A stretch of DNA of 64,000 bases from Escherichia phage vB_EcoM_WFH: the sequence record NC_048194.1. The stretch is one strand, 5' to 3'. The notes below the pieces were generated by a model that searched no databases, had not been told where the DNA came from, and worked only from the letters and a program-made list of their open reading frames with translations. A program made the translations under genes and the position numbers. This document shows positions 9,146 to 64,000 of the stretch, one piece after another (position 1 is the first letter of the stretch; each line of letters opens with the position of its first letter).

Positions 9146-10558
9146 ATGCAAACGGCACGCGAAATTGACAAAAATGGATTCTTGACGATTGTGGGTTGTC
9201 CCATTTCGTCATTTGGCATTTTTGATTATTCTGCAGGTCAGGTTGGACTTGATGGTGATCCGAATCGCATCGTAAAAGTTTATCGCCCAGAGTCAGCGGT
9301 GAAAGACCCCGAAGCGATAGATTCATTCAAAAATATCCCTTTCATCGACAATCACGAAATGCTTTCTGGATTCGAAGGTGATGAGGATAACACAGCACCC
9401 GAAGAGTATGGCGTTGATGGCGTTCTAACTGGCAATGTTTATTATGACAAGCCATGGATGCGCGGCGACCTTAAAGTTTTTAGCCGTCGTCTGAAGAAGG
9501 CCATCGATTCTGGAAAGGTTGACTTGTCTTTGGGCTATGACTGTGAATTCATCATACAGTCTGGAGAGTTTGACGGGCAGCCGTATGAAGTGGTACAGAC
9601 AACTCTTCGCGGCAACCACATTGCTCTCGTGGACGTTGGTCGAGTACCAGGTGCACGGGTGCTGGATGGTCGTTGCTTTGACCATCTTTGTTTGACGACT
9701 GTAACACCATCCAACGAGGATTTAGACATGCCAAAACCGTTAAAAGGTAAAGCGCGTGATAATGCTGTTGAACAGCTGAAATCACTGATCCCTGCGCTCG
9801 AACAATTTCTGAATGAAGAGAGCACCGAAGCTGCTCATCAGGACGAAGTTGAAGTGAAAGCAGAAGAGAAGGATTCAACCGAAGAACGTGAAGAAGTGAT
9901 GGTTGATCCAGAAGTCAAAGCAGAAGCTGAAGAGACTCCAGAAGGTGAAGAGAAGTTTGAAGTTGAAACTGAATCTCACGCTGGCGGCGAGCTTCCGCAA
10001 CTGATCAGCCAAATCGAAGCACTTATTGCAAAACTGAAAGGTGGCGCGGTAGGTGATGAAGAAGAAGTTGAAGCCGAAGTCAAAGACGAAGAAGTTGAAG
10101 TCAAGGCTGAAGATGTATCACCTTGCGACAAAGCTGAAGATGTGGTTAGCGGCCTGCAAAACAGCAACGTAAAGGGGGCTTCGGTCGAAAAAGATGACAA
10201 ACCGACAAAAGCGGCGAAAGCGTCGCCAGGTCCAGCAAAAGGGGAACACTCAATGGCATCTGATTCAGCAGTTGCTGCTTTCTACGCTGATTCTGCTCGT
10301 AAGAATAGCCTCTACCAGCGCCTGTCTAAAGTTGTTGGTGCCTTTGATCATGCAACTATGGACTCCAAGTCCGTAGCGAAATATGGCGCTAAAAAGTTAG
10401 GCTTGAAGTGCGTTGATGGTGCTGAGTTTGACGTGGTGGATAATTATCTGCGCGGCGTTGAACACGGTCAAAAACAGCGTGTAGTCGCAAAACAAAAGGC
10501 CGCTGCGGATTCTGCAGCAACTGACGAAGCATTTGAAGCTTGGTTGAAAGGGGAATAA
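9146..10558 (+). CDS. putative scaffolding protein (possibly protease-scaffold fusion)
   Basis: Position between MuF-like and capsid genes; long highly acidic Glu-rich central region (EEREEVMVDPEVKAEAEETPEGEEKFEVETE...); RBS gagggtgg. Confidence 0.45.
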   Translation: MQTAREIDKNGFLTIVGCPISSFGIFDYSAGQVGLDGDPNRIVKVYRPESAVKDPEAIDSFKNIPFIDNHEMLSGFEGDEDNTAPEEYGVDGVLTGNVYYDKPWMRGDLKVFSRRLKKAIDSGKVDLSLGYDCEFIIQSGEFDGQPYEVVQTTLRGNHIALVDVGRVPGARVLDGRCFDHLCLTTVTPSNEDLDMPKPLKGKARDNAVEQLKSLIPALEQFLNEESTEAAHQDEVEVKAEEKDSTEEREEVMVDPEVKAEAEETPEGEEKFEVETESHAGGELPQLISQIEALIAKLKGGAVGDEEEVEAEVKDEEVEVKAEDVSPCDKAEDVVSGLQNSNVKGASVEKDDKPTKAAKASPGPAKGEHSMASDSAVAAFYADSARKNSLYQRLSKVVGAFDHATMDSKSVAKYGAKKLGLKCVDGAEFDVVDNYLRGVEHGQKQRVVAKQKAAADSAATDEAFEAWLKGE

Positions 10559-12912: not shown

Positions 12913-12926
12913 ATAAGGTGAATGCC

Positions 12927-13382
12927 ATGTCATTAGATTACGAAAAGTTCAGAATAAAATTTCCACAGTTTGCTGATCAGGTAAAATTCCCTGACACAAC
13001 GCTTCAAGTATTCTATGACATGGCATGTGAATTTATTGAATCACAAGACAGTCCTTGTCGTGTTTTAAATGGCAGTAAATTGGAGCTGGCATTGGAATAT
13101 ATGACGGCTCATCTTTTATGCATAGCCACAGACCAACAGGTGTCTGTGTCTTCTGGTGACGGAGTTGAACAAGGCGGCTTCGTGACTGGTGCAACAATCG
13201 GTGACATCACCGTGAATAAGGTAGCGCCGCCTGCAAGTGATGGTTGGGAATACTGGCTTTCAAGCACTCCTTATGGCATGGCGCTTTGGGCGCTTCTGCA
13301 AGCACTGGCTGTCGGCGGCTTGTCGTTTGGCGGTCTTCCAGAGCGCGAAGGATTTCGTAAAATTGGTGGGGTATTCTGGTGA
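12927..13382 (+). CDS. head-tail connector/adaptor-like protein
   Basis: ATG at 12927 with RBS aaggtgaa (track start is GTG 12918); MSLDYEKFRIKFPQF... N-terminus recalled from DUF4054-type head-tail joining proteins. Confidence 0.4.
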   Translation: MSLDYEKFRIKFPQFADQVKFPDTTLQVFYDMACEFIESQDSPCRVLNGSKLELALEYMTAHLLCIATDQQVSVSSGDGVEQGGFVTGATIGDITVNKVAPPASDGWEYWLSSTPYGMALWALLQALAVGGLSFGGLPEREGFRKIGGVFW

Positions 13383-13738
13383 GGATTCCTGGCGTAAACT
13401 TATATCGAGTTGCGACAAAGGTCATCGGTCGCCAACCGATTCAATATTACATGTACAAGGGGCGCACTCTTGATAAAATGCGCAACTACGTTACCACTTA
13501 TGAAGAACCAATCACGCTACTTGCTTCGGTGCAGGCTGTTCTTCGAAATCAATACGTCGAGCTTGGATTGGAGCTTCAAAAGAACTATGTCAAAATCTGG
13601 GTAGACAAAGACATTGTTGACCTTGACCGCGACGCTTCCGGCGACTATTTGTGTTTGGTGGGAAAACGTATAAAATGGAAGATGAAACGACATGGTTTGA
13701 CCAAGATGGTTGGACGACTTGCCTTGCCGTGGAAATAA
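13379..13738 (+). CDS. hypothetical head-tail joining protein (119 aa)
   Basis: GTG start overlapping upstream stop; co-directional structural array. Confidence 0.35.
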   Translation: MRIPGVNLYRVATKVIGRQPIQYYMYKGRTLDKMRNYVTTYEEPITLLASVQAVLRNQYVELGLELQKNYVKIWVDKDIVDLDRDASGDYLCLVGKRIKWKMKRHGLTKMVGRLALPWK

Positions 13739-13956
13739 AACAAAGCTTTCCAGTGTCTACTTGAGGTGTATATGACAGATGTCGACCTGATTGAACATGC
13801 TGGCAACGCGAATTGAAGAAGGTCTGGCGGCGTATAGTCGTGCAGACCTTTCTGCTGTTCCGGTCCAGAAAAAGTATCAACCGACTCAACAGGGTATTCC
13901 GACTGGTGACCAAATTTGGTTTAACCTTTTATTCTCAGTTCCGTTTTGGATGGTCC

Positions 13957-14349
13957 ATGAGGAAAAGTGAATTTGTCAATGATGAGTCTCAATTTGTAAA
14001 CGGAAAATTCAGAGATATTGAAGATCAAATATACGCTACACGTTTTCAAATCAGCGGCTTATTTCCAGAAGTTCCTGGCAATCCAGAAAAGCCTACTGCT
14101 AATGACGTATTGACTTATTTGGCAAGATTCATAACTCATAAAGCGAATTTGAGGGATTGGTTCAAAAAGCATCAGGCATCAGTATATCGAATCGACATGA
14201 ATAATAATGAAAAGTTTTATGATGACATGTCGCAATTTGAATCATTCCCTTCTTTTGATTTGGTAATACTTCACAGAAACGCAATTTCAATTGATACTCC
14301 TGCTGTTGCAAGAGCTGTTAATAATGATTTGGGTGATATTCCGGTGTAA
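13957..14349 (+). CDS. hypothetical protein; start uncertain
   Basis: Downstream, natural-looking part of track ORF 13813..14349 from ATG 13957; upstream part of that ORF looks out of frame, and a separate 57-codon ORF (13797-13970) in another frame overlaps. Confidence 0.3.
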   Translation: MRKSEFVNDESQFVNGKFRDIEDQIYATRFQISGLFPEVPGNPEKPTANDVLTYLARFITHKANLRDWFKKHQASVYRIDMNNNEKFYDDMSQFESFPSFDLVILHRNAISIDTPAVARAVNNDLGDIPV

Positions 14350-14350
14350 T

Positions 14351-14500
14351 ATGACAAAATCAAAAATGATAGAAAAACAGATTAAGGCGCTTCAGTCTAT
14401 GAAGGGGCTTACTGTTGAGGCAGGATGGTTTGATTCTACCAGATACCCTTCAGAAACTGGTGGAGAAGGAAATACTGGTGTCAGAAGTCGCGCGGCTTAA
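14351..14500 (+). CDS. small ORF, possibly N-terminal piece of a virion morphogenesis gene
   Basis: ATG at 14351 (track start 14291 upstream); product MTKSKMIEKQIKALQSMKGLTVEAGWFDSTRYPSETGGEGNTGVRSRAA. Confidence 0.3.
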   Translation: MTKSKMIEKQIKALQSMKGLTVEAGWFDSTRYPSETGGEGNTGVRSRAA

Positions 14501-14556
14501 CGAGTTTGGTCACATAGCCGTTTTGAAACTTTGGACAAGGACCAGTCAGGGTAGAA

Positions 14557-14799
14557 GTGCCACCCAGACCATTCATGAGATATGCCTATGAATTATTCGT
14601 TAGTGAGCGCAGTGAAATAGAGAATAAAATTGCTAAAAAGATTTTTTCCGGTAAAATAGACGCTAGACAGGCATTGGGTCAAATTGGGCTTGCGATGGAA
14701 GCAAAGATTGTCGAATCAATTAAAAACGGACCGTGGCAACCAAATGCCAGATATACTGTACGTGTGAAGGGGATTCGACAAGCCTTTGATTCACACTAG
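14557..14799 (+). CDS. virion morphogenesis-like protein (C-terminal part)
   Basis: GTG start; product begins MPPRPFMRYAYELF..., resembling the conserved PaRPF motif recalled from Mu gpG-type virion morphogenesis proteins. Confidence 0.4.
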   Translation: MPPRPFMRYAYELFVSERSEIENKIAKKIFSGKIDARQALGQIGLAMEAKIVESIKNGPWQPNARYTVRVKGIRQAFDSH

Positions 14800-14851
14800 C
14801 CTCATGTGGCAATCTGTCAGCAGCCAAGTCATTAAATAAGAGGACACCGAC

Positions 14852-16390
14852 GTGATCAGTCAATCTCGTTATATTAAAATTGTATCAGGGGTCGGAGCAG
14901 GCGCGGCTGTTGCAGTTCGCAAACTGTCGCTTCGCGTCATGACTTCTAATACAGTTCTGCCGCCGGGCATTGTAGCAGAATTTTCAACGGCTGATGCTGT
15001 TGGATCATATTTCGGTTATTCTTCCGAAGAATATAAGCGCGCAGCATTATATTTTGGATTCATCAGCAAGCAAATTAACTCGCCTGATTCAATCAGCTTC
15101 TCGCGTATTGTTTCAACTGCGATTCCAGCAATGGTCATCGGTGATACTGAGCCTAAAGTGCTTGCTACGTTTCAAGCATTCACTGGCGCTATTTTAAGCA
15201 TCACTTATGATGGCACAGACTACCTGACTGACGCAATTAACCTTTCAGCGGCAACAAGTCTGGCGAATGTGGCTGAACTTCTGGAAACGGCAATCAATAC
15301 TAAATTTGCAGCAGAAGGGGGCACGTCGGTGCCTGCACTTGCTGATGCAGAAGTGTATTGGAACGCTAATACTCAGCAGTTCACGCTGGAAGCAGCGCCG
15401 TCGACCGCTGGCGCAGGCAATCTGTCTATCAACGTCACAGGCCAACCGACCGACCCGTCTCAAGCATTAGGTTGGACCACCACTGGCACCGTAACCGTTG
15501 CAGGCCAGGGCGTTTCAAGTCCGGTAGAAGCCATCGCGGCATCTGTGGAAATCTCCAACAACTTTGGCTCATTCCTTTTTGCTGGGGCTGACCGAACTCT
15601 GGAAGAAATTACCGCTGTGGCAGCGTGGACTCATTCGCAGAATAATATGTACATGTATTTATTCTCGACTTCGTTCGCTAATATCGGGTCATACTACACC
15701 GCTCTGAAAGGGTACTCAGGCGTTGGCATGATGATTCGCGCAACTAACCTTGCAAACGATTACATCGACCAAGCACCTGCTGAAATCCTTGCGGCGACAA
15801 ACTATAATACTGTGAATGCGACTCAAAACTACATGTATTATCAGTTTGATACTCGCAACGTGACTGTTTCAACTGACTCTCGTGCAGACACTGCTGATCA
15901 AAACCGTGCTAACTACATCGGTGCAACTCAGCAGGCCGGACAAACCTTGGCATTCTTCCAGCGCGGCGTATTGATGGGCGGGTCTACCGCAGCAGTTGAC
16001 ATGAATACTTATGCCAACGAGATGTGGCTTAAATCTGCTATCACTTCTCAGCTGTTCAGCATGTTCTTGAATCTTGGTCGCGTGCCTGCAAACGAAGAAG
16101 GTAAAGCGACTGTACAAGCCATGATTCAAGTTGCTGTTGACAATGCGAAGGTTAACGGCACCATCTCTGTTGGTAAGGCGCTGACTGAGATTCAGAAACA
16201 ATACATCACGCAAACTTCCGGTGACAACACTGCTTGGCGGCAGGTTGAAACTATCGGTTACTGGCTGACTGTAGATTTTGATACTGAAACCACTTCAGAT
16301 GGGCGCACCGAATACTATGCAACATACACGCTAATCTACTCTAAAGATGATGCTGTGCGTCGCGTTGAAGGTCGTGACGTCCTTATCTAA
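14852..16390 (+). CDS. tail sheath-like structural protein
   Basis: 512 aa, GTG start with RBS aagagga; large protein immediately upstream of two tube-like paralogues; baseplate J/V-like genes downstream imply contractile tail. Confidence 0.45.
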   Translation: MISQSRYIKIVSGVGAGAAVAVRKLSLRVMTSNTVLPPGIVAEFSTADAVGSYFGYSSEEYKRAALYFGFISKQINSPDSISFSRIVSTAIPAMVIGDTEPKVLATFQAFTGAILSITYDGTDYLTDAINLSAATSLANVAELLETAINTKFAAEGGTSVPALADAEVYWNANTQQFTLEAAPSTAGAGNLSINVTGQPTDPSQALGWTTTGTVTVAGQGVSSPVEAIAASVEISNNFGSFLFAGADRTLEEITAVAAWTHSQNNMYMYLFSTSFANIGSYYTALKGYSGVGMMIRATNLANDYIDQAPAEILAATNYNTVNATQNYMYYQFDTRNVTVSTDSRADTADQNRANYIGATQQAGQTLAFFQRGVLMGGSTAAVDMNTYANEMWLKSAITSQLFSMFLNLGRVPANEEGKATVQAMIQVAVDNAKVNGTISVGKALTEIQKQYITQTSGDNTAWRQVETIGYWLTVDFDTETTSDGRTEYYATYTLIYSKDDAVRRVEGRDVLI

Positions 16391-37142: not shown

Positions 37143-37561
37143 GACAATTCCTCTAAATACTTGATGATGTGATGAATAGTGCCCTTCACGATTATCTCAC
37201 GTTGAACGTCTGCAATATTATAACGCTTTAATTCAATCGAAGGGTGGACTAAATAAAACATCTTCTCAGAATCGACTTTAAGCAAAACAAATGATGGGTA
37301 TTTCCAATCATTCCACGAAGAAAGAAAGCTGCACTGACCTTTCTCAAATGCATTTCTGAAAGGTGCAGTGGTGGCCCTTGCAGGCCACGATTCAAAGAAC
37401 TTCATTTCAAGCCAAAAGCCGCGCCCTTTCCGGTTGGTGCCGATTACGTCCGGCACACCATCACCCGTCATTGATTCGATTCTTTGAAGCTTCAAGATTG
37501 ATTCTGAATGCTTCTTCAAAGGCACGAATATGTATTTCTGTTCACGGTTATTTGTTGCCAT
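37139..37561 (-). CDS. VRR-NUC domain nuclease
   Basis: 140 aa; GVPDVIG...GRGFWLEMK core resembles the VRR-NUC PD-(D/E)xK pattern; gene immediately precedes and overlaps the SNF2 helicase gene, a common pairing. Confidence 0.5.
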   Translation of the reverse strand: MATNNREQKYIFVPLKKHSESILKLQRIESMTGDGVPDVIGTNRKGRGFWLEMKFFESWPARATTAPFRNAFEKGQCSFLSSWNDWKYPSFVLLKVDSEKMFYLVHPSIELKRYNIADVQREIIVKGTIHHIIKYLEELS

Positions 37562-40445
37562 CTGGATACACCTGTTTGATCACGTCGACGATAAACATGT
37601 CAATACCTTCAAGCTTGCGGCCTTTCATCAGAAAGAATGCGCCGTTCCCGACGTTCTCTGCAATGTACTTACCGTATTTCTGGAACTTCTCTGGGCGAAT
37701 CCTGAAGCGCATTGGCGAGTCGGTCGAATCGTCCTTGCACATAAGGTCAATGAACTGAGTCTCAAGCTTGTTTCCATACTGGTCAAACTCTGCGTAGCGG
37801 CCATCAGCTTGAAGACCCTTTTTAAGTTTGCCGTGCTTTGTATAAATGCCGCGCTCAAGACGTTTACGGATGCGTGTCGCTTCGTTCTCGTCAGCCAGCA
37901 CTTTCTTGGTCAACTTGCCGATTACTATTGCACGCTCGTCATCGCCGACTTCCTTCATCTGGCGTATTGAAGCACCGGAAGTAACGCCAATCAGATAGGG
38001 GTCATTATACGCCCAGCCAAACTTGGTGTGCATCTCTGTAAGGTCGCCGTATTTGACTTCAGCATTGGCCAATGCATCCTTTTGTTTTTGCGTTAAGGTT
38101 CCGGCTTCACGCGCTTCGATGTACTTCATCGCCTTCACCATTCCGTACCCTTTGGCGTTCATTATGCCGCCGATTAGCTTTCCGTTAGCGATGGTCCAGT
38201 TCATTGAAGAGTGATCAGGGTCGATTGGCACATAATCCACGCCTTCCTTTGCAAGTTCACGTAATATCGCAATCGTCTGGTCTTCGTCCTTAGCAGCGCG
38301 TAAGCAAGCAGCGGCAAATTCCAACGGGTAGTGTCGTTTAAGCCACAAGGTCCAGTAAGTCACGACCGCGTATGACACGGAGTGTGACTTGTTAAAGCCC
38401 CATGACCCGAACGTCGCCATCGCCTGCCAAAGCTTTCTTGCATCCGCTTCCGGTACGCCGTTATTTATTGCGCCTGCAACGAAGTCTTCGCCAAGCTTGT
38501 TAAAGTATTCCTCACCCTTACGACCTGACATCGCCTTACGCACAGCTGACGTTTTCGCCCAGTCGAATGAACCAATCTCTTTAACCACGGCCATGATTTG
38601 CTCTTGGTAAAGAAACACGCCATAAGTCTCTTTTAAGTACGGCTCAAGCTGCGGCACGTCGTACTCAATCGGCGCACGTCCTGCCGCGCGTTCAATGTAT
38701 TTCTGGGCCATACCGGACGACAACGGGCCAGGTCGGCCAAGTGCTGTCAGGTTATCGATTTTGTTAAAGTTATCAACGTGCACAAAGTTGGTCACTGAGC
38801 GTACAGCGTCGCCTTCAAACTGGAAGATGCCTGACATCTTGTTTTCGTTAAGGATGTCAAGGACGCTTTGGTCATCAAGCTTGATTCCGTACAGCGTTTC
38901 AGCATCTATCACGCCAGTATCAGAAATGATTCCGAGGGTGCGAAGACCCAATGCATCAAGCTTCAAAAGGTTAAGGTATTCGCTGTCAGGCTTATCAATT
39001 TGTGCAATCCCTTCCGCCGTTACCGTACAGTAATCAGAGATTGGGTCATTACAAACGATGATTCCCGCTGCGTGAACGCCAGTGTGGGAAGGGTGAATCT
39101 CAAGGTCACCCATGCATCGCGCGGCATCGGGATATTTAGCCACAAACTCTTGGCCCGTGGTCGTTGTTGCAAAGGTGTCCTCCAGGCCGTGGCCATAACG
39201 GGCGTCACCGGATGAGTATTCAAGCAATGCGTTTTTAATGTTGGCCGTTTCGTGATATCCAATGTTGAATTTCTTACCAACCTGAGCCATTACTGAGTTG
39301 GCCTTAAGCGTGTTGATGTTGCCAAGTTTTGCAACGTTCATTTCGCCGTATTTTTCTTTAAGGTAATCAAAAACCATATAGCGTTTGGTATCCTCAAAGT
39401 CAATATCAATATCAGGAAGGTCTGCGCGGCTTACGTCAATGAATCGGGCAAACAGTAGCTTATACGGGATTGGGTCAACCTCCGTGATGCCGAGGCAATA
39501 ACAAACCAGTGAACCAGCCGATGAGCCGCGAGCGGGTCCGACGAGCATTTTTGTTTTTGCGAATCGTACAAGGTCCGCTACCACCAGAAAGTATGAGTCG
39601 AAATCTTTCAGCTGAATCTGGTGAATCTCTTCGTTGAATCGGTCCTCATATTCCTGAGTCCATTCTTTGATGTGACCTGCCTTAAGGCGGTACTCCATCC
39701 CCTCACGAGCAAGCTTTACCATGTCACCAGCAAGGTGGATAATCGGTGCCTTGCGCAGCTTCAGGTCAAGCCCAACGATTCCATTTGCAATATCAACCGC
39801 ATTGGCCGTTGCTTGATTCAACTCGTCTTCGGTCAGGATTCCTTTAAGCTGTTTGCGCAAGTCTTCCGCGTCAACGATGCAGTGCGGCTTAACCGTGTCT
39901 CGAACTTCCCATGCATAAGCAAAGTCAACGTGCTCAGGTGAAGGCATGTGGTTGTATCCGGTTAAAACCAGCGGCCTTCCGTTGCTGCGGTGAGCCAATA
40001 CCTGGCGCTTGGCCAAAAGGAACGATGATGGGTTGACGTCTATATAATCATAGTCCTCTGGCCGCAGCAGCTCCACGGCCCCGCCACAGAATTTAACGAC
40101 GCCATCGAGCGCCCCGAACTCTGCACGGGTCAGTCCGCCGCGCTGTGTTGCAAGCGTGGTCGCGTTGTAAAAGGATTTCAGGTCAAGCGCCAATATCCAA
40201 GCCTTCGGTTTGAATCCCTTTTTCGGGTCCGCATCAGGGTCAATGATTGGAATCTCCATACCGAACATAGGCTTGATATCATTCTTCTGACATTCCTTTT
40301 CCCATCGAACGTGACCCCATGTATTGTTATCAACTAATGCCGCGACTTCGCAGCCCAACTCTTTGAGCCGTGCTATAATTTCAGGATGCCGTCCATATAC
40401 TTCTTTGAACGTGTAACCGCTGCGAACTCTCAATTGTGGAAACAT
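37548..40445 (-). CDS. dnaE: DNA polymerase III alpha subunit (DnaE-type replicative polymerase)
   Basis: 965 aa; N-terminal PHP-domain pattern; hallmark motif GFNKSHSVSYAVVTYWTLWLKRHYPLEFAAACL matching DnaE palm region. Confidence 0.9.
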   Translation of the reverse strand: MFPQLRVRSGYTFKEVYGRHPEIIARLKELGCEVAALVDNNTWGHVRWEKECQKNDIKPMFGMEIPIIDPDADPKKGFKPKAWILALDLKSFYNATTLATQRGGLTRAEFGALDGVVKFCGGAVELLRPEDYDYIDVNPSSFLLAKRQVLAHRSNGRPLVLTGYNHMPSPEHVDFAYAWEVRDTVKPHCIVDAEDLRKQLKGILTEDELNQATANAVDIANGIVGLDLKLRKAPIIHLAGDMVKLAREGMEYRLKAGHIKEWTQEYEDRFNEEIHQIQLKDFDSYFLVVADLVRFAKTKMLVGPARGSSAGSLVCYCLGITEVDPIPYKLLFARFIDVSRADLPDIDIDFEDTKRYMVFDYLKEKYGEMNVAKLGNINTLKANSVMAQVGKKFNIGYHETANIKNALLEYSSGDARYGHGLEDTFATTTTGQEFVAKYPDAARCMGDLEIHPSHTGVHAAGIIVCNDPISDYCTVTAEGIAQIDKPDSEYLNLLKLDALGLRTLGIISDTGVIDAETLYGIKLDDQSVLDILNENKMSGIFQFEGDAVRSVTNFVHVDNFNKIDNLTALGRPGPLSSGMAQKYIERAAGRAPIEYDVPQLEPYLKETYGVFLYQEQIMAVVKEIGSFDWAKTSAVRKAMSGRKGEEYFNKLGEDFVAGAINNGVPEADARKLWQAMATFGSWGFNKSHSVSYAVVTYWTLWLKRHYPLEFAAACLRAAKDEDQTIAILRELAKEGVDYVPIDPDHSSMNWTIANGKLIGGIMNAKGYGMVKAMKYIEAREAGTLTQKQKDALANAEVKYGDLTEMHTKFGWAYNDPYLIGVTSGASIRQMKEVGDDERAIVIGKLTKKVLADENEATRIRKRLERGIYTKHGKLKKGLQADGRYAEFDQYGNKLETQFIDLMCKDDSTDSPMRFRIRPEKFQKYGKYIAENVGNGAFFLMKGRKLEGIDMFIVDVIKQVYPDGNK

Positions 40446-44630: not shown

Positions 44631-45626
44631 TTATTTATTAGCAATATAAGCAAATTTTTGATAGTTATTTGCTTTGATGAGTTTTTCGACTTCAACAAGG
44701 TCATGAGCGACGTCATCAAGCAAGATATTGCGCCAGGTCGCGAATCGACCGACACTAAACACGTTTAAATCCATAGTCAGCTGCAGGAGTAGGGCGTGTC
44801 GCAAGTCTTTCGGAATGTCGACAATCTTGCCATATTTCTGGTCGACCTTTTCAACTTCTTCAAGAGCAATGTCACTCCATGAAAGGCCAAAGGCCGTCAA
44901 CACTTCGTCGACTTCTGCGCGCAGCTTCATGTCACGGTAACGAGTGATGCCGCCTGCGGCTTCAACTGCAGCTTCACTCACGCTGACCAAAGGAATTGTT
45001 TCAATGATAAGCGTGTCACCAGTAATTGATGCGCGGTAAGTTCTGACGGAGTAGTCAGGGAAGTAAATTGTCTGATACAAATCACACTTACGTTTAATCT
45101 TAAAGCGGTAAACGCGAATGTTTGCTTTATCAAATGAGAAATCAAGCTTTTGATCAATTCCAGCAAGCTTCATCATGACTGGCAGCGGCGACGTGTTGAT
45201 GATTGGCGTCTCGCTATAGCCGCAAAGAGTATCAACCGGAGTATTAAAGAATATGCGGTCACCCAGTTTGTCGACAAGCTGATCATAAAAGTCATCAGGC
45301 GCAATATAACGCGTTGCAGTCTTAAGCTTCATGATTGAACGGCTGCCAAATTGATTGGTGACCTTCATGGAATACATATTGGCAAGGTTGATTGGGCAAT
45401 GGTCGTGATAGTAGTTGCCGCGAAAATACACAGCCTTGTCAACTGTCACGGCCTTAAAAGGGATTCCGGTAATACGGCTTACTTCTTCGCCGCGAAAGCG
45501 TAGCAGCGCCTTGTGCTGTTGCGCTCGTTCCCCTGCTTCGTACACAATAGAGTTCGGGAAGTGACACGCGGTGATAAGTCCTGCCAATCCGCCGCCGATA
45601 ATCATTACAGGTTGTTTCATGTTCAT
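44631..45626 (-). CDS. FAD/NAD(P)-binding oxidoreductase
   Basis: 331 aa; N-terminal dinucleotide-binding fold MIIGGGLAGLITA; C-terminal GRFATWRN...DD reminiscent of flavoenzymes such as UDP-galactopyranose mutase or amine oxidases. Confidence 0.55.
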   Translation of the reverse strand: MNMKQPVMIIGGGLAGLITACHFPNSIVYEAGERAQQHKALLRFRGEEVSRITGIPFKAVTVDKAVYFRGNYYHDHCPINLANMYSMKVTNQFGSRSIMKLKTATRYIAPDDFYDQLVDKLGDRIFFNTPVDTLCGYSETPIINTSPLPVMMKLAGIDQKLDFSFDKANIRVYRFKIKRKCDLYQTIYFPDYSVRTYRASITGDTLIIETIPLVSVSEAAVEAAGGITRYRDMKLRAEVDEVLTAFGLSWSDIALEEVEKVDQKYGKIVDIPKDLRHALLLQLTMDLNVFSVGRFATWRNILLDDVAHDLVEVEKLIKANNYQKFAYIANK

Positions 45627-60143: not shown

Positions 60144-60440
60144 AGCGTATAATGACGTAAGATTTGGACCTATCCGTAGTTCACTCCACACACTTCTATG
60201 GTGCGCCGCGACTGGGTTCAGTGGTACATCTTACGGATGATACGGATGATACGCGTCGCCGCTATACTTTATACAACTTTGAAAAAAACAATTAACTCCA
60301 TTTTGAATTAATTTAAATTAATTTTTTTCTACATCCTCATACTTATACTAAACTTATATTTATACGTATTATCCGTAAGATATAAGTAAAAACAAAGACT
60401 TGCGGCAATACGGATGATACGTCATGATACGCTTCAACCA
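60144..60440. repeat. iteron module copy B (homologous to 8757-9040)
   Basis: gcgtataatgacgta...; tcttacggatgatacggatgatacgcgtcgccgctatactttata (45-bp core, 2 mismatches vs copy A); AT-rich spacer; ttatccgtaag and caatacggatgatacgtcatgatacgc. Confidence 0.7.
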
Positions 60441-60578
60441 GCCAGCAGCGGCTAAGTCATTGATTTGCATAACAAGCGGCGAAAGGGATGGATTTCTTTT
60501 ATGCGTATCAAACAGTACACCACGCACCACGGTCCGATATTCATTCAGCACTATGATTTATGTACTTTTACAGCCAAT

Positions 60579-60605
60579 TTGAACATCAATCTGCACTTGA
60601 ATATA
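60579..60605 (+). promoter_or_regulatory. promoter-like element (TTGAAC ... TGnAATAAT) upstream of TerS-like gene
   Basis: -35-like TTGAAC and extended -10-like TGAATAAT about 50 bp upstream of ATG 60658, followed by two tandem ATTTGCACTATG repeats. Confidence 0.35.
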
Positions 60606-60657
60606 ATGTTCAATCATTGTATAATTCACACTATTAATTTGCACTATGGGATTTGCA

Positions 60658-61133
60658 CTATGAGTCAAGATTATGTAGCAATGCCTGAAGACTTTGAAGA
60701 CCCGCGATTTGCAGAGCATAATCAGGCATTATTCGATGAGTTCATTGACCTTGTTATTCAGGGCCATGACATGCGCGCAGCTTTTGCACTAGTATTTGGC
60801 ATGGAGGTTGCGACCGATAACTACACTGGCCAGCGAATCCTGTGCACTCAGCGCAACCCGTACTACAAGATGCGCTACAAAAAGCGCATGGAAGAAATGC
60901 CATTGAAGGAATTGTGGAGCGTAAAAAGTTCCATCCACAATTTAGTGAAGCTTGTGCGTGATCCAGAAGTCGCGGCGTCAGCCAAGCTTAATGCCATTCG
61001 TGAACTGAATATCATCTACGGCATCACGATGATTGATGAAAATGGCAATAGTAAAATGGGCCGTTCCATGGACGATTTCTACAAGGATTTTGGAGAGGCA
61101 GCCAAAGAGGGTGAGCAATTCTCCCGCCACTAG
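60658..61133 (+). CDS. terminase small subunit-like DNA-binding protein (tentative)
   Basis: ATG at 60658 (track ORF 60465 starts upstream in AT-rich non-coding DNA); 158 aa; ...NQALFDEFIDLVIQGHDMRAAFALVFG...RILCTQRNPYYKMRYKK... resembles TerS N-terminal HTH pattern; start codon overlaps a repeat copy. Confidence 0.3.
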
Positions 61134-61150
61134 CCAATTTGCACTATAAA

Positions 61151-61188
61151 ACGGCCCTAGAACACATTTTCTCCACTTCTAGGGCCGT
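61151..61188 (+). terminator. stem-loop (ACGGCCCTAGAA-n14-TTCTAGGGCCGT) downstream of TerS-like gene
   Basis: 12-bp stem; no strong U-tract. Confidence 0.45.
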
Positions 61189-61561
61189 TGGTAATACGAC
61201 GGGGAAGGCTGCAACCATGAACGCGTTAGAAAGTGTATTATTATAAGTCATCTTTTAGTCACTTTACGTAACAATTTACGACCTTCCGCCGTCCAGTCGA
61301 ACGACTCCACCAGCAGATTTGCACTATAACCTAAGACGATGCGCCCCTTCTCGTTATCGACCCGCCAACAAGTCTCGAATAGCATTCGATTTGCACTATT
61401 AACTATCGCCGCAACGCGCGTTGGGTAAGCGCAATTTGCACTATGGTCGTAAAGGGATAAGGTGCGACCACTGCCGATGGACAACGTAGCGATGAGAATA
61501 AGCGTATTCATAAGCCACCAATTTGCACTATGAAAAGCGACCCCGAAGGGCCGCCATTCGA

Positions 61562-62188
61562 TTAGATAATCTGGAAGGTGTAGGACTTGTTGCCGAACTC
61601 GAAGTTCAAGCGCCCAGCTTCCTTAAGCTTCATGCGGAAGCGAATATGTTTGCTATCCGGTAAGCCCAGCGCGGCGAACGCTACGCGGACCGATTTGAAC
61701 TCGCCTACACCCTCGACCATAACGGCGTTACGGGTGAGACGCTTTTGCGCCACTTCCTTGTTATCCCAACTTTTTGCAATACCTTCGCTATTAGAACGGC
61801 GATGGGAAGGAGTTCCATTTTGCACTACGCAATTTGCACTATCGTTTAGGCCGCTCTTAACGAAGGCTTCATACTCTTCGTCGGTCATCGCGTCGAGTTC
61901 TTCCTGAGTCGGCTCGGCCTTTTTAACGACCGCACGCGCCTTATGCGTTTTTACATCGCTGGACACTTCCTCGCGCGGCTTCGCGTCGGGGATGGGCAAT
62001 TCGTTGGACGGCTCATCGAGCGCGTTTAAGGACTCGATTAACGCGATGACGCGAGTCTCAGCGGTGCGACGGTCCACAAACTTCTTAATCGGTTTTGAGC
62101 CGGAGTTGGCATTATAGAATGCAACGAGGTCGGCGGTCTTAGTTGCGATAACGTCGCCGCTAGTAGAAAAGCGATTTAAGCTAACCAT
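61562..62188 (-). CDS. hypothetical protein (208 aa)
   Basis: Track ORF in CpG-rich block; contains two ATTTGCACTAT-type motifs within its coding sequence (61817-61842); no recognised domain. Confidence 0.4.
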   Translation of the reverse strand: MVSLNRFSTSGDVIATKTADLVAFYNANSGSKPIKKFVDRRTAETRVIALIESLNALDEPSNELPIPDAKPREEVSSDVKTHKARAVVKKAEPTQEELDAMTDEEYEAFVKSGLNDSANCVVQNGTPSHRRSNSEGIAKSWDNKEVAQKRLTRNAVMVEGVGEFKSVRVAFAALGLPDSKHIRFRMKLKEAGRLNFEFGNKSYTFQII

Positions 62189-62268
62189 AATAAACTCCTA
62201 TTTGTTAGGGCGCTAGGCGCGAAAGAATTTTATTAAAGCGCCGCGCACGACGCTCTAAAAATCCTCTC

Positions 62269-62583
62269 TTACTCTTCGTCGTCTTCGATTAATTCGAAGG
62301 CGAAGGCATAAGCTTTGCTATCGTAATTAACTAAAACGGCGAGTTCGAACTCGTTAATAAACGCCGTTTTACCGCATAAATTTAATTCCGCATCGACTTC
62401 GAAGAATCCGTTTTCGTCGCGCTCTAAGCGAGAAGCAGCGAGTTGCTCGATTACCGTCGCGTCGTTAATTTCTTCGCCTAAGCGAACGCCGGAGAATTTC
62501 GCGAGAATTTCGCCGTAAGTAAGCGTAACACCCTGGACTTCGGCGGTTGCGTTTTCGAGGGTGAAGCGGGTAACGATAGCCAT
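62269..62583 (-). CDS. small acidic protein, paralogue C (104 aa)
   Basis: RBS aggag; very acidic (ends ...FELIEDDEE); similar size and charge to 62808..63110 and 63217..63507; driven by minus-strand copy of shared promoter module. Confidence 0.45.
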   Translation of the reverse strand: MAIVTRFTLENATAEVQGVTLTYGEILAKFSGVRLGEEINDATVIEQLAASRLERDENGFFEVDAELNLCGKTAFINEFELAVLVNYDSKAYAFAFELIEDDEE

Positions 62584-62651
62584 TTTAAACTCCTAGTTGG
62601 GAGAGGCGTTAACGACCTATTCGTTAACTCATCCCGTCCCGATATGAGTAC

Positions 62652-62679
62652 ATTATAATATAGTGTAGAAAAAAGTAAA
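62652..62679 (-). promoter_or_regulatory. sigma70-like promoter, minus-strand copy of shared module (TTTACT-16-TATAAT)
   Basis: Reverse complement of 62634-62686 reads AAAGTGCTTTACT...TTATAAT...ATATCGGGACGGG, matching the two plus-strand copies. Confidence 0.45.
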
Positions 62680-62723
62680 GCACTTTTTCGATAAAAATGC
62701 GATAAATTATTTTATCTTTTTTC

Positions 62724-62751
62724 TTTACTTCTTCGTACACTCGCGTATACT
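62724..62751 (+). promoter_or_regulatory. sigma70-like promoter, plus-strand copy 1 (TTTACT-16-TATACT)
   Basis: CTTTACTTCTTCGTACACT core shared with 63121-63149; followed by ATATCGAGACGGG. Confidence 0.45.
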
Positions 62752-62807
62752 TGTTTATATCGAGACGGGCGATGGCCCTTTCTTCTACTAGCATCGGGAG
62801 CTTTATT

Positions 62808-63110
62808 ATGACTACTTTAATCTCTTCCATCCTTACTTACGACGAAGACCGCTTAACCGTTCGCTCTCTTATCGCCGCCGTTAACGCGGAACTAGAATCT
62901 AGCGCCATCAAGGTCCGTGCCGTTGCCTTCGTCGGCCTTTCCTTCGACGATATTAAGTATGCAGAGTATAGCGCCATTCGCGTTGTTACTACCGACGATA
63001 ACGCCGTTACCCTTATCGAGACGGTTACGCCGCGCGGCGAAGCGTTAATTATCGTCGAGTATATCGACGTAGAAGGCGATAAAGCTTATAAATATTTTAT
63101 CGCAGAATAA
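62808..63110 (+). CDS. small acidic protein, paralogue A (100 aa)
   Basis: ATG at 62808 with RBS gggag (track start 62751 upstream); MTTLISSILTYDEDRLTVRSL... Confidence 0.45.
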   Translation: MTTLISSILTYDEDRLTVRSLIAAVNAELESSAIKVRAVAFVGLSFDDIKYAEYSAIRVVTTDDNAVTLIETVTPRGEALIIVEYIDVEGDKAYKYFIAE

Positions 63111-63120
63111 CGAAAAGTGC

Positions 63121-63149
63121 TTTACTTCTTCGTACACTAAGACTATAAT
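63121..63149 (+). promoter_or_regulatory. sigma70-like promoter, plus-strand copy 2 (TTTACT-17-TATAAT)
   Basis: AAAGTGCTTTACTTCTTCGTACACT...TATAAT...ATATCGAGAGGGG. Confidence 0.5.
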
Positions 63150-63216
63150 GTTTTATATCGAGAGGGGATGAGGTAGCGAATAGGTCGCTACCCTCCCGAC
63201 TAACTAGGAGAATATT

Positions 63217-63507
63217 ATGATTACTTTAGCCGCTATCCGTTCCGCTCGCGTCGAAACTTCCGAAAACTCTAACGTATTTGGCGAAAAACTTAAAAACGTT
63301 TATCTCTTTAACGTAGATGCGACTATCGAAGAGCTTCATAGTCCTATCGATTTTAGCGAATTTACGGAACTCGAAGAGGAAGATATTACTACCTTCCGCG
63401 TTACTATCGAAGGTAAGGTTTATTTTGCTACGGAGTTCGGCGGCGAATATCTCGCGGTATCCGAAGGCGAAGGCCGTTACTCTTTCTTTAAAATCGTCTC
63501 CTTATAA
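63217..63507 (+). CDS. small acidic protein, paralogue B (96 aa)
   Basis: ATG with RBS aggag; MITLAAIRSARVETSENSNVFGEKLKNVYLFNVDATIEELHSPIDFSEFTELEEEDITTF... Confidence 0.45.
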   Translation: MITLAAIRSARVETSENSNVFGEKLKNVYLFNVDATIEELHSPIDFSEFTELEEEDITTFRVTIEGKVYFATEFGGEYLAVSEGEGRYSFFKIVSL

Positions 63508-63527
63508 TACCCTTCCGTTACTAATAG

Positions 63528-63553
63528 GCCGCGCTTAGTCGCGGCTTTTCTTC
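63528..63553 (+). terminator. intrinsic terminator (GCCGCG-CTTAGT-CGCGGC + TTTTCTTCG)
   Basis: GC stem plus U-tract directly after paralogue B. Confidence 0.6.
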
Positions 63554-63960
63554 GTCCCTATCTCGATGCGCTTCTCCGCGAAAACTCCTTTATCCTTCCC
63601 TTCGTCGTCGCATAATCTTCGTCGAGATGCGCCTTAGTTCGCATAACAGGTATTACGTTAAATGGAGAACATCGCGTAAGTCCTTGTTTTATATAGACAC
63701 CTATATCGGACCGTTAGGGAGGGTCGCGCAAGTCGTTGTTTTATAAAGGCGCAAAACTTTCCCTTCGTTCCGAACTAAAACGAGAAATATGCCGACCCTT
63801 CGCCCGAAAATAGTACGCATGCGAAATTACATGTATCTAGAATAATCCCCACCGATATTATCCTACACGCAATCATTAGCTTTCGAATCATTATGCTTCA
63901 TACTATTATGCGTCGAATCATTCGCTTTCTAATTGTAACGCTGGAAACTGTAACGGCGAT
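63554..63960. repeat. ORF-free tract rich in short direct repeats at window end
   Basis: No ORF of 60 aa or more; recurring short motifs (AATCATT x3, TTCGAATCATT x2, TTGTTTTATA x2, GATGCGC x2, CGCATAA x2, TGTAACG x2); window ends inside it. Confidence 0.4.
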
Positions 63961-64000
63961 TGATTATTGCGTTCGTGTGGTTTTTAGGGCATGGGTCTTT

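What the first reader, a model, noticed from the sequence alone, without database searches (positions are those of the whole stretch)
13770..14800. Coding-frame ambiguities in the head-tail joining region (possible frameshifts or split genes)
Between 13770 and 13970 three frames carry plausible short reading frames (a 14-codon ORF after a good RBS at 13772, a 57-codon ORF from 13797, and the track ORF whose upstream part looks non-natural). Between 14350 and 14600 a morphogenesis-like product appears spread across frames: one frame ends ...GEGNTGVRSRAA, another reads ...ARLNEFGHIAV..., a third begins ...VPPRPFMRYAYELF.... This could reflect sequencing indels, genuine programmed frameshifting, or pseudogenisation.
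Basis: seen in the sequence. Interest (0 to 1): 0.35.

Follow-up and report, generated by a model that had tools for sequence, protein, structure and literature searches.

The report
Sequencing indels break three neck genes
Three ordinary head-to-tail "neck" genes of an E. coli phage look fragmented because this one database record carries six single-base length errors, which are almost certainly sequencing or assembly mistakes and not biology.

Summary
Between 13,648 and 14,772 the reading frame breaks six times. The window is Escherichia phage vB_EcoM_WFH (genus Wifcevirus, 71,283 bp): the truncated ORF products are exactly its annotated proteins WFH_00029, WFH_00030 and WFH_00031.

Eleven independent relatives, 93-99.5% identical in DNA, were aligned. 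Against all of them the window has six private 1-nt run-length changes: T4 to T3 at 13648-50, A to AA at 13794, T3 to T4 at 13944, A2 to A3 at 14470, A2 to A3 at 14526-8, and G3 to G4 at 14769.

Undoing these changes gives three continuous genes of 128, 191 and 161 aa. Their products are 100%, 99.5% and 100% identical to those of phages Ro157lw and OZ035737. They are the neck collar (Pfam E217_gp28), the gateway (E217_gp29) and a "tail completion/Neck1" protein (PHROG 222).

The only other record sharing the indels, PQ604604.1, is a consensus built on the WFH coordinates, so it is not independent evidence.

WFH is a viable plaque-forming phage. Six uncompensated frameshifts in single-copy neck-module genes are therefore best explained as errors in the deposit. 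Programmed frameshifting, pseudogenisation and "independent small genes" are all rejected or unlikely.

Biological interest is low. The practical value is in correcting databases.

The parts
13379..13764 (+). Neck collar gene (homologue of E217 gp28 / Pa193 gp29). It is 386 nt here and 387 nt in relatives. The frame is broken at 13648-13650, so as written it reads on to a false stop at 13736-13738 (the 119-aa product annotated as WFH_00029).
   Evidence: The corrected 128-aa product matches Pfam PF22755 E217_gp28 at 2.9e-46 and PHROG 4475. It matches PDB chains 9b42_A and 8fvh_C at 3e-34 and 3e-32. It is 100% identical to the Ro157lw and OZ035737 products. tblastn splits it into two frames in the window but gives a single match in Ro157lw.
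13648..13650 (+). Indel 1: a run of 3 T where all 11 relatives have 4 T (1-nt deletion).
   Evidence: Alignments.
13772..14349 (+). Neck gateway gene (homologue of E217 gp29 / Pa193 gp30). It is 578 nt here and 576 nt in relatives, and is broken by two 1-nt insertions. The fragments are the 14-codon ORF 13772-13816, the 57-codon ORF 13797-13970, and ORF 13813-14349. The 130-aa annotated WFH_00030 is the tail of the last fragment.
   Evidence: The corrected 191-aa product matches Pfam PF22756 E217_gp29 at 2.8e-38 and PHROG 4414 at 1.4e-66. It matches PDB chains 8fvh_M and 9b42_J at 3e-16. It is 99.5% identical to relatives, differing only at R80K.
13794..13795 (+). Indel 2: AA where all relatives have a single A (1-nt insertion). 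The WFH-based consensus PQ604604.1 has N at 13794.
13944..13947 (+). Indel 3: TTTT where all relatives have TTT (1-nt insertion).
14351..14839 (+). 'Tail completion / Neck1' gene lying between the gateway and sheath genes. It is 489 nt here and 486 nt in relatives. Three 1-nt insertions break it into four frame pieces: 14351-14469, 14471-14527, 14529-14768 and 14770-14839. The annotated 80-aa WFH_00031 is ORF 14557-14799.
   Evidence: The corrected 161-aa product matches PHROG 222 at 2.7e-43. It is 100% identical to the Ro157lw and OZ035737 products, and this exact sequence is seen on 91 contigs. tblastn finds a match in 640 phage records, 613 of them covering at least 80% of the query in one place; every listed row is a single uninterrupted piece.
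14470..14472 (+). Indel 4: AAA where all relatives have AA (1-nt insertion). It leads to a false stop at 14498-14500.
14526..14528 (+). Indel 5: AAA where all relatives have AA (1-nt insertion). PQ604604.1 has N at 14528.
14769..14772 (+). Indel 6: GGGG where all relatives have GGG (1-nt insertion). It leads to a false stop at 14797-14799, while the true C-terminus continues in the next frame to 14839.
12918..13382 (+). Context: intact upstream gene, annotated in relatives as a virion structural protein, DUF4054 or head-to-tail connector.
14852..16390 (+). Context: intact tail sheath gene (512 aa) immediately downstream.

Best explanation
The window is positions 7,284-71,283 of the deposited genome of Escherichia phage vB_EcoM_WFH (Wifcevirus). 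Positions 13379-14839 hold three ordinary, single-copy neck-module genes in the conserved order collar, gateway, 'tail completion/Neck1', followed by the sheath gene.

In this one record a 1.1-kb stretch carries six single-base run-length errors, five insertions and one deletion, all in runs of 1-4 identical bases. The real phage most likely encodes the uninterrupted 128-, 191- and 161-aa proteins.

Shown here: the six indels, their privacy to this record, and the restoration of full-length conserved proteins when they are undone.

Inferred: that the indels arose in sequencing, consensus calling or assembly and not in the phage. A locally under-polished or low-quality stretch is one possibility. 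The publication used either PacBio RS II with HGAP3 or MiSeq with SPAdes, and does not say which was used for WFH.
For: 1. Identity of the source.
- The truncated ORF products are exact matches to WFH_00029, WFH_00030 and WFH_00031 (QBQ77317, QBQ77318 and QBQ77319). Each is seen on a single contig of 71,283 bp.
- Korf et al. 2019 give WFH as 71,283 bp with a 3.7-kb terminal repeat, 46.12% GC and 416x coverage. The window's GC is 46.2%.

2. The six 1-nt indels are absent from all 11 independent relatives that were aligned. Those relatives have no indels among themselves in this region. All 26 other Wifcevirus records cover the window's 1,701 nt with 1,697 or 1,694 nt.

3. Undoing the six changes gives products 100%, 99.5% and 100% identical to those of Ro157lw and OZ035737. 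They match E217_gp28, E217_gp29 and PHROG 222 over full length.

4. The exact corrected collar sequence is on 62 contigs and the exact corrected Neck1 sequence is on 91 contigs. The truncated forms are on one contig each. Exact 20-23-mers spanning two of the insertions have 0 hits in IMG/VR.

5. All six changes extend or shorten a run of identical bases. The chance of this for random indels is about 0.007. Five of the six are insertions.

6. The only record sharing them, PQ604604.1, is flagged 'UNVERIFIED' and has no annotation.
- It has exactly the WFH length, and its N blocks keep the WFH coordinates throughout. It never differs from WFH in length, so it is a reference-guided consensus that inherited the indels.
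- Its only two N's in a 27-kb stretch fall on two of the inserted bases.

7. Viability.
- WFH forms plaques on more than 25 strains and shows complete myovirus particles by EM.
- The three genes are single-copy in the window.
- Collar and gateway are structural parts of the neck in Pa193 and E217 (PDB 8fvh, 9b42).
Against: - No reads are available, so the error has not been observed directly.
- The mean coverage reported for WFH is high (416x). That makes residual consensus errors unexpected unless there was a local problem.
- The tight clustering (six in 1.1 kb, none in the neighbouring 27 kb) has no identified technical cause.
- The affected runs are short (1-4 nt), while longer runs in the same stretch are untouched. 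This is not the classic pattern in which the error rate rises with run length.
Confidence: 0.88

Rival explanations
1. The indels are real mutations in the DNA that was sequenced. For example, a defective sub-population or a passaged stock in which these neck genes had just been hit by polymerase slippage.
For: - Run-length changes are also what replication slippage produces.
- The reported coverage is high, so a consensus error needs a special local cause.
- The clustering is unexplained.
Against: - This needs six independent, uncompensated frameshifts in three single-copy neck-module genes of a phage that plaques and makes complete virions.
- There is no other sign of decay. The corrected proteins are 100%, 99.5% and 100% identical to relatives, and window-private substitutions are not enriched in the stretch (2 of 10 within 7 kb).
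- The truncated alleles are seen on no other contig.
Confidence: 0.08
2. The breaks are programmed recoding sites, either ribosomal +1/-1 frameshifting or transcriptional slippage, and full-length proteins are made despite the frame breaks.
For: - Phage morphogenesis genes are a classic place for programmed frameshifts; the lambda G/GT tail chaperone is an example (general knowledge).
- The three insertions in the last gene add up to +3.
Against: - Recoding sites are conserved among homologues. Here none of the 11 aligned relatives has any of the six breaks, not even those 99.4-99.5% identical in DNA. In the wider family, 613 of 640 phage records cover at least 80% of the query in one place, and every listed row is a single uninterrupted piece.
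- It would require six efficient events, in both directions, in three genes needed in stoichiometric amounts.
- The sites are plain 2-4-nt runs with no shared motif.
Confidence: 0.01
3. The short ORFs are genuine independent small genes or overlapping genes.
For: A Shine-Dalgarno-like GAGGTG precedes the ATG at 13772, and some fragments have start codons.
Against: - The GAGGTG and ATG at 13772 are simply the start of the 191-aa gateway gene in all relatives.
- The fragments join into full-length matches to curated families.
- Homologues have three genes with fixed boundaries.
Confidence: 0.01

Closest known systems
Orthologous genes of other Wifcevirus phages, for example ECML-117 gp43, gp44 and gp45 (YP_009101044, YP_009101045, YP_009101046) and Ro157lw _00029, _00030 and _00031
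   Same: The order, boundaries and DNA are the same (93-99.5% identity). The proteins are identical or differ by one residue once the six bases are corrected.
   Different: In those records each gene is one continuous ORF of 387, 576 or 486 nt. The window has one base fewer, two more and three more, respectively.
Neck of Pseudomonas Pbunavirus phages E217 and Pa193: collar (E217 gp28 / Pa193 gp29) and gateway (E217 gp29 / Pa193 gp30), PDB 8fvh and 9b42
   Same: - There is clear sequence homology: Pfam PF22755 and PF22756, and PDB matches at 3e-34 and 3e-16.
[quoted passage not shown]
- In Pa193 the hexameric collar and gateway extend the portal/adapter channel, and the gateway contacts the sheath.
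   Different: The host genus differs, and the protein identity is only moderate (the aligned stretches are shown). The frame breaks are not part of that system.
PHROG 222 'tail completion or Neck1 protein' (Pbunavirus LBL3 gp26, and the same gene slot as Pa193 gp31)
   Same: The HMM match is 2.7e-43. Identity to the Pbunavirus homologues is 40.9%, and the gene sits in the same slot between gateway and sheath.
   Different: - There is no Pfam, NCBIfam or PDB sequence match.
- A confident AlphaFold model has no PDB fold match.
- The protein in the same slot of Pa193 was detected in virions by LC-MS but was not located in the maps. The name is therefore an annotation and not a demonstrated role.
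Programmed translational frameshifts in phage morphogenesis genes (for example the lambda G/GT tail assembly chaperone)
   Same: There are overlapping frames in a morphogenesis module.
   Different: Those sites are conserved across relatives and yield two defined products. Here the breaks are private to one database record, there are six of them, and they interrupt proteins that are continuous everywhere else.

Membership tests
Sequencing / assembly indel artefact | The indels change the length of runs of identical bases. | tested here: met
   Six of six do so: T4 to T3, A1 to A2, T3 to T4, A2 to A3, A2 to A3, G3 to G4. The chance for random indels is about 0.007.
Sequencing / assembly indel artefact | The indels are private to one record and absent from close independent relatives. 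| tested here: met
   They are absent from the 11 aligned relatives and from all 26 other Wifcevirus records. The truncated proteins occur on one contig only. PQ604604.1 shares them only because it is a consensus built on the WFH coordinates.
Sequencing / assembly indel artefact | Undoing the indels restores full-length, conserved proteins with no other damage. | tested here: met
   The restored proteins are 128, 191 and 161 aa and are 100%, 99.5% and 100% identical to relatives.
Sequencing / assembly indel artefact | Raw reads or independent re-sequencing of the same stock disagree with the deposited consensus. | not testable with these tools
   No reads are available. The paper does not state which platform was used for WFH.
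Programmed ribosomal frameshift / recoding site | The frame break and slippery site are conserved in homologues. | tested here: not met
   No relative has any of the breaks.
Programmed ribosomal frameshift / recoding site | A slippery motif together with a downstream stimulatory structure. | not tested
   The sites are short runs with no common motif by eye. No folding was run because the conservation test had already failed.
Pseudogene (decaying gene) | Disabling mutations are present. | tested here: met
   There are six frameshifts with premature stops.
Pseudogene (decaying gene) | Relaxed constraint, seen as extra substitutions, and a dispensable gene or a defective element. | tested here: not met
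   The corrected proteins are essentially identical to relatives. The genes are single-copy, and the source is a plaque-forming lytic phage.
E217 collar protein gp28 family (Pfam PF22755) | A full-length match above Pfam's gathering score. | tested here: met
   156.6 bits against a cut-off of 27, covering profile positions 1-110 of 110, on the corrected protein. PDB 9b42_A matches at 3.1e-34.
E217 gateway protein gp29 family (Pfam PF22756) | A full-length match above Pfam's gathering score. | tested here: met
   131.8 bits against a cut-off of 27, covering profile positions 1-163 of 163, on the corrected protein. PDB 8fvh_M matches at 3e-16.
PHROG 222 'tail completion or Neck1 protein' | An HMM match and the conserved position between gateway and sheath. 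| tested here: met
   2.7e-43. The synteny is the same in Wifcevirus and in Pbunavirus LBL3.
PHROG 222 'tail completion or Neck1 protein' | A demonstrated structural role in the neck. | not testable with these tools
   There is no PDB match by sequence or fold. Pa193 gp31, in the same slot, was detected by LC-MS but not placed in the maps.

The most novel reading that the evidence does not exclude
The six frame breaks are really present in the WFH genome, and the phage still makes functional collar, gateway and Neck1 proteins by efficient recoding at short homopolymers, through transcriptional slippage or ribosomal frameshifting. This would be an unprecedented density of recoding events in structural genes.
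Probability: 0.01. Interest if true: 0.7.

Novelty: not a real feature. Interest (0 to 1): 0.05.

Why it matters
There is nothing new biologically. The genes are the known collar, gateway and Neck1 trio of PB1/E217-like myophages.

The practical point is about database quality. The record is the RefSeq and species exemplar of Wifcevirus WFH. Its three truncated proteins have been carried into RefSeq, UniProt (A0A482MTD4, A0A482MUC8, A0A482MV11) and BFVD, where the 80-aa fragment has its own predicted structure. At least one later submission, PQ604604.1, used the record as a mapping reference and inherited all six indels.

Correcting six bases would restore three full-length neck-module proteins.

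Tried and rejected
- **Programmed frameshifting.** Rejected because no relative shares any of the breaks.
- **Independent small genes.** Rejected because homologues have three continuous genes and the fragments concatenate into full-length family matches.
- **PQ604604.1 as independent confirmation of the indels.** Rejected. It has the same total length, its N blocks preserve the reference coordinates, it never changes length, and it shows isolated N's at places where other relatives differ by indels.
- **A second intact copy of the genes elsewhere.** None was found in the window.
- **Search for the frameshifted alleles elsewhere.** There were 0 exact matches in IMG/VR for two junction patterns, and no match at all in E. 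coli complete genomes or in plasmids.
- **A local cause for the clustering.** GC is unremarkable to slightly low, and there are no significant repeats. Runs of 4 nt or more are about twice as dense as the window average, but the longest runs are not the ones affected. No cause was identified.
- **Naming the third protein through Pfam, NCBIfam, PDB sequence search or PDB fold search.** There were no significant matches. Only PHROG 222 and BFVD models matched. My initial recollection that it resembles the HK97 gp10 family was not confirmed by any profile search.
- **Finding which platform sequenced WFH.** Neither the paper nor its supplement says.

Full report
**What is in the sequence.**
- ATG at 13772, behind GAGGTG, opens a 14-codon ORF.
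- ATG at 13797 opens a 57-codon ORF ending at 13970.
- ORF 13813-14349 has an odd N-terminal third.
- Further on, ORF 14351-14500 ends ...GEGNTGVRSRAA*.
- ORF 14415-14591 contains ...ARLNEFGHIAV....
- ORF 14557-14799 begins (V)PPRPFMRYAYELF.

Two things were missed. First, the last gene continues in a fourth frame after 14769 (...KGFDKPLIHTSLMWQSVSSQVIK*, stop at 14837-14839). Second, the gene just upstream of the stated range (13379-13764) is also frame-broken.

**Where the window comes from.** The region is 93-99.8% identical to Escherichia and Shigella phages of the genus Wifcevirus. The window is collinear, base for base, with PQ604604.1 at an offset of 7,283 up to that record's last base, 71,283.

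The truncated ORF products of 119, 130 and 80 aa are exact matches to WFH_00029, WFH_00030 and WFH_00031 of Escherichia phage vB_EcoM_WFH. Each is seen on a single 71,283-bp contig. Korf et al. 2019 (PMC6563267) report the following for WFH:
- a genome of 71,283 bp with a terminal repeat of about 3.7 kb;
- 46.12% GC;
- 416.5x coverage;
- accession MK373776.

The window's GC is 46.2%. Its last 3,701 bases match the start of the WFH-coordinate record PQ604604.1. The window is therefore WFH positions 7,284-71,283.

**The six indels.** I aligned the window with 11 independent relatives: ECML-117, OZ035737 'Wifcevirus WFH', Ro157lw, Bas100, Mansfield, WFC, EC150, TH35, CWP003, TH32 and Eco4M-7. The alignment shows exactly six length differences, and all of them are private to the window.

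| Window position | Window | All relatives | Change |
|---|---|---|---|
| 13648-13650 | TTT | TTTT | deletion |
| 13794-13795 | AA | A | insertion |
| 13944-13947 | TTTT | TTT | insertion |
| 14470-14472 | AAA | AA | insertion |
| 14526-14528 | AAA | AA | insertion |
| 14769-14772 | GGGG | GGG | insertion |

The relatives have no indels among themselves in this stretch. Each carries three long ORFs, annotated as CDS of 387, 576 and 486 nt.

Against Ro157lw there is no other frame-breaking indel anywhere between window 2,100 and 29,300. The six are therefore tightly clustered: the span is 1,122 bp, and the probability of this for uniformly placed events in 27.2 kb is about 7e-7. All six extend or shorten a run of identical bases, which has a chance of about 0.007 for random indels.

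**What the genes are.** Undoing the six changes gives proteins of 128, 191 and 161 aa. They are 100%, 99.5% (one private change, R80K) and 100% identical to those of Ro157lw and OZ035737.
- The first is the neck collar. It matches Pfam PF22755 E217_gp28 at 2.9e-46 and PDB 9b42_A and 8fvh_C.
- The second is the gateway protein. It matches PF22756 E217_gp29 at 2.8e-38 and PDB 8fvh_M and 9b42_J.
- The third matches only PHROG 222, 'tail completion or Neck1 protein', at 2.7e-43.

The third protein has no Pfam, NCBIfam or PDB sequence match. A confident AlphaFold2 model (pLDDT 87.8) has no PDB fold match. It does match BFVD models called neck or virion-morphogenesis proteins. Homologues occur in 640 phage records, 613 of which cover at least 80% of the query in one place; every listed row is a single uninterrupted piece.

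The gene order adapter, collar, gateway, this protein, sheath is the same in Pbunavirus LBL3. In Pa193 the collar and gateway form hexamers that extend the portal/adapter channel, and the gateway contacts the sheath. The protein in the slot between gateway and sheath, gp31, was found in virions by LC-MS but was not located in the maps (PMC11456595).

**Error or biology?**
- *Programmed frameshifting* is excluded in practice. Recoding sites are conserved, and none of the breaks exists in any relative, not even at 99.4-99.5% DNA identity.
- *Independent small genes* are excluded for the same reason.
- *Real mutations* would mean six uncompensated frameshifts in three single-copy neck-module genes. 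Yet WFH plaques on more than 25 strains and shows complete particles by EM. There is also no other sign of decay.
- *Uniqueness of the truncated alleles.* They exist on one contig only, whereas the exact corrected collar and Neck1 sequences are found on 62 and 91 contigs. Junction patterns have no match in IMG/VR.

The one record that shares the indels, PQ604604.1, is flagged 'UNVERIFIED' and has no annotation. It has exactly the WFH length, keeps the WFH coordinates through every N block, and never differs from WFH in length. It is therefore a reference-guided consensus that applied substitutions and N masking but not indels. Its only two N's between record positions 9,340 and 36,608 sit exactly on two of the inserted bases, which suggests that its reads did not support those bases.

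I therefore conclude, at about 0.88, that the six indels are sequencing, consensus or assembly errors in the deposit.

**What remains unexplained.** I could not find out why the errors cluster in 1.1 kb of an assembly reported at 416x coverage. I also could not find out which platform was used for WFH; the paper used either PacBio RS II with HGAP3 or MiSeq with SPAdes. The excess of insertions that duplicate a neighbouring base would fit an under-polished single-molecule long-read stretch, but this rests on my own knowledge of error profiles and was not tested here. Composition and repeats give no clue.

**Verdict.** The underlying genes are ordinary and already known. Biological interest is very low. 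The practical consequence is that a RefSeq and species exemplar genome carries three broken neck genes whose fragments have spread to UniProt and BFVD, and whose indels have been inherited by a later reference-guided submission.

Noticed in passing
window 60300-64000: The last 3,701 bases of the window match the first 3,701 bases of PQ604604.1, the record built on the WFH coordinates. This fits the direct terminal repeat of about 3.7 kb reported for WFH.
   Followed up: partly
whole window compared with PQ604604.1 (L005/L006): PQ604604.1 (Escherichia phage ECP_WGS_SA1, 'UNVERIFIED', 71,283 bp, 4,091 N) is a reference-guided consensus built on the WFH record. It has the same length, its N blocks preserve the coordinates, it has substitutions but never an indel, and it inherits all six WFH indels.
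   Followed up: yes
window 38061-38192 (inside the 965-aa ORF 37548-40445, minus strand): This 132-nt stretch aligns twice, in tandem, to Ro157lw (MH051335.1 about 45167-45298 and 45293-45424), and Ro157lw has an extra G. Ro157lw therefore seems to carry a tandem duplication of about 127 nt. This would explain why its DNA polymerase III alpha gene is annotated as two CDS, while the window's gene is intact.
   Followed up: partly
window 14351-14839 (corrected product) and its homologues: This widespread 'tail completion/Neck1' family (PHROG 222; tblastn match in 640 phage records) has no Pfam or NCBIfam model. A confident AlphaFold2 model has no PDB match by sequence or fold. The protein in the same slot of Pa193 is in the virion by LC-MS but is not placed in the cryo-EM maps. 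Its location and role in the particle appear to be open.
   Followed up: partly
homologues of window 14351-14839 in other phage records: Several records annotate members of this family as 'RNA polymerase' or 'putative RNA polymerase' (PaP1, Acinetobacter phage P711, NCVTCBPA170, phiK7A1). Given the family's place in the neck module, this looks like a propagated mis-annotation.
   Followed up: no
window 14012: The window has a private G where all 11 relatives have A. This gives R80 instead of K80 in the gateway protein. The exact corrected 191-aa sequence with R80 is not found among about 15 billion proteins. It could be a real strain difference or a seventh (substitution) error.
   Followed up: partly
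protein clusters: Full-length collar, gateway and Neck1 proteins identical to Wifcevirus ones occur on dozens of contigs of about 68-69 kb that are labelled Escherichia coli or Salmonella enterica in NCBI, ENA and Logan assemblies. So genomes of this lytic phage genus often turn up inside bacterial isolate sequencing projects.
   Followed up: no
P0025 (Logan contig of 1,271 nt): This is another frame-broken fragment of the same Neck1-like gene. Its two ends are out of frame at positions different from the WFH breaks, and it comes from an unrelated short assembly. It shows that such artefacts recur in low-quality assemblies.
   Followed up: no
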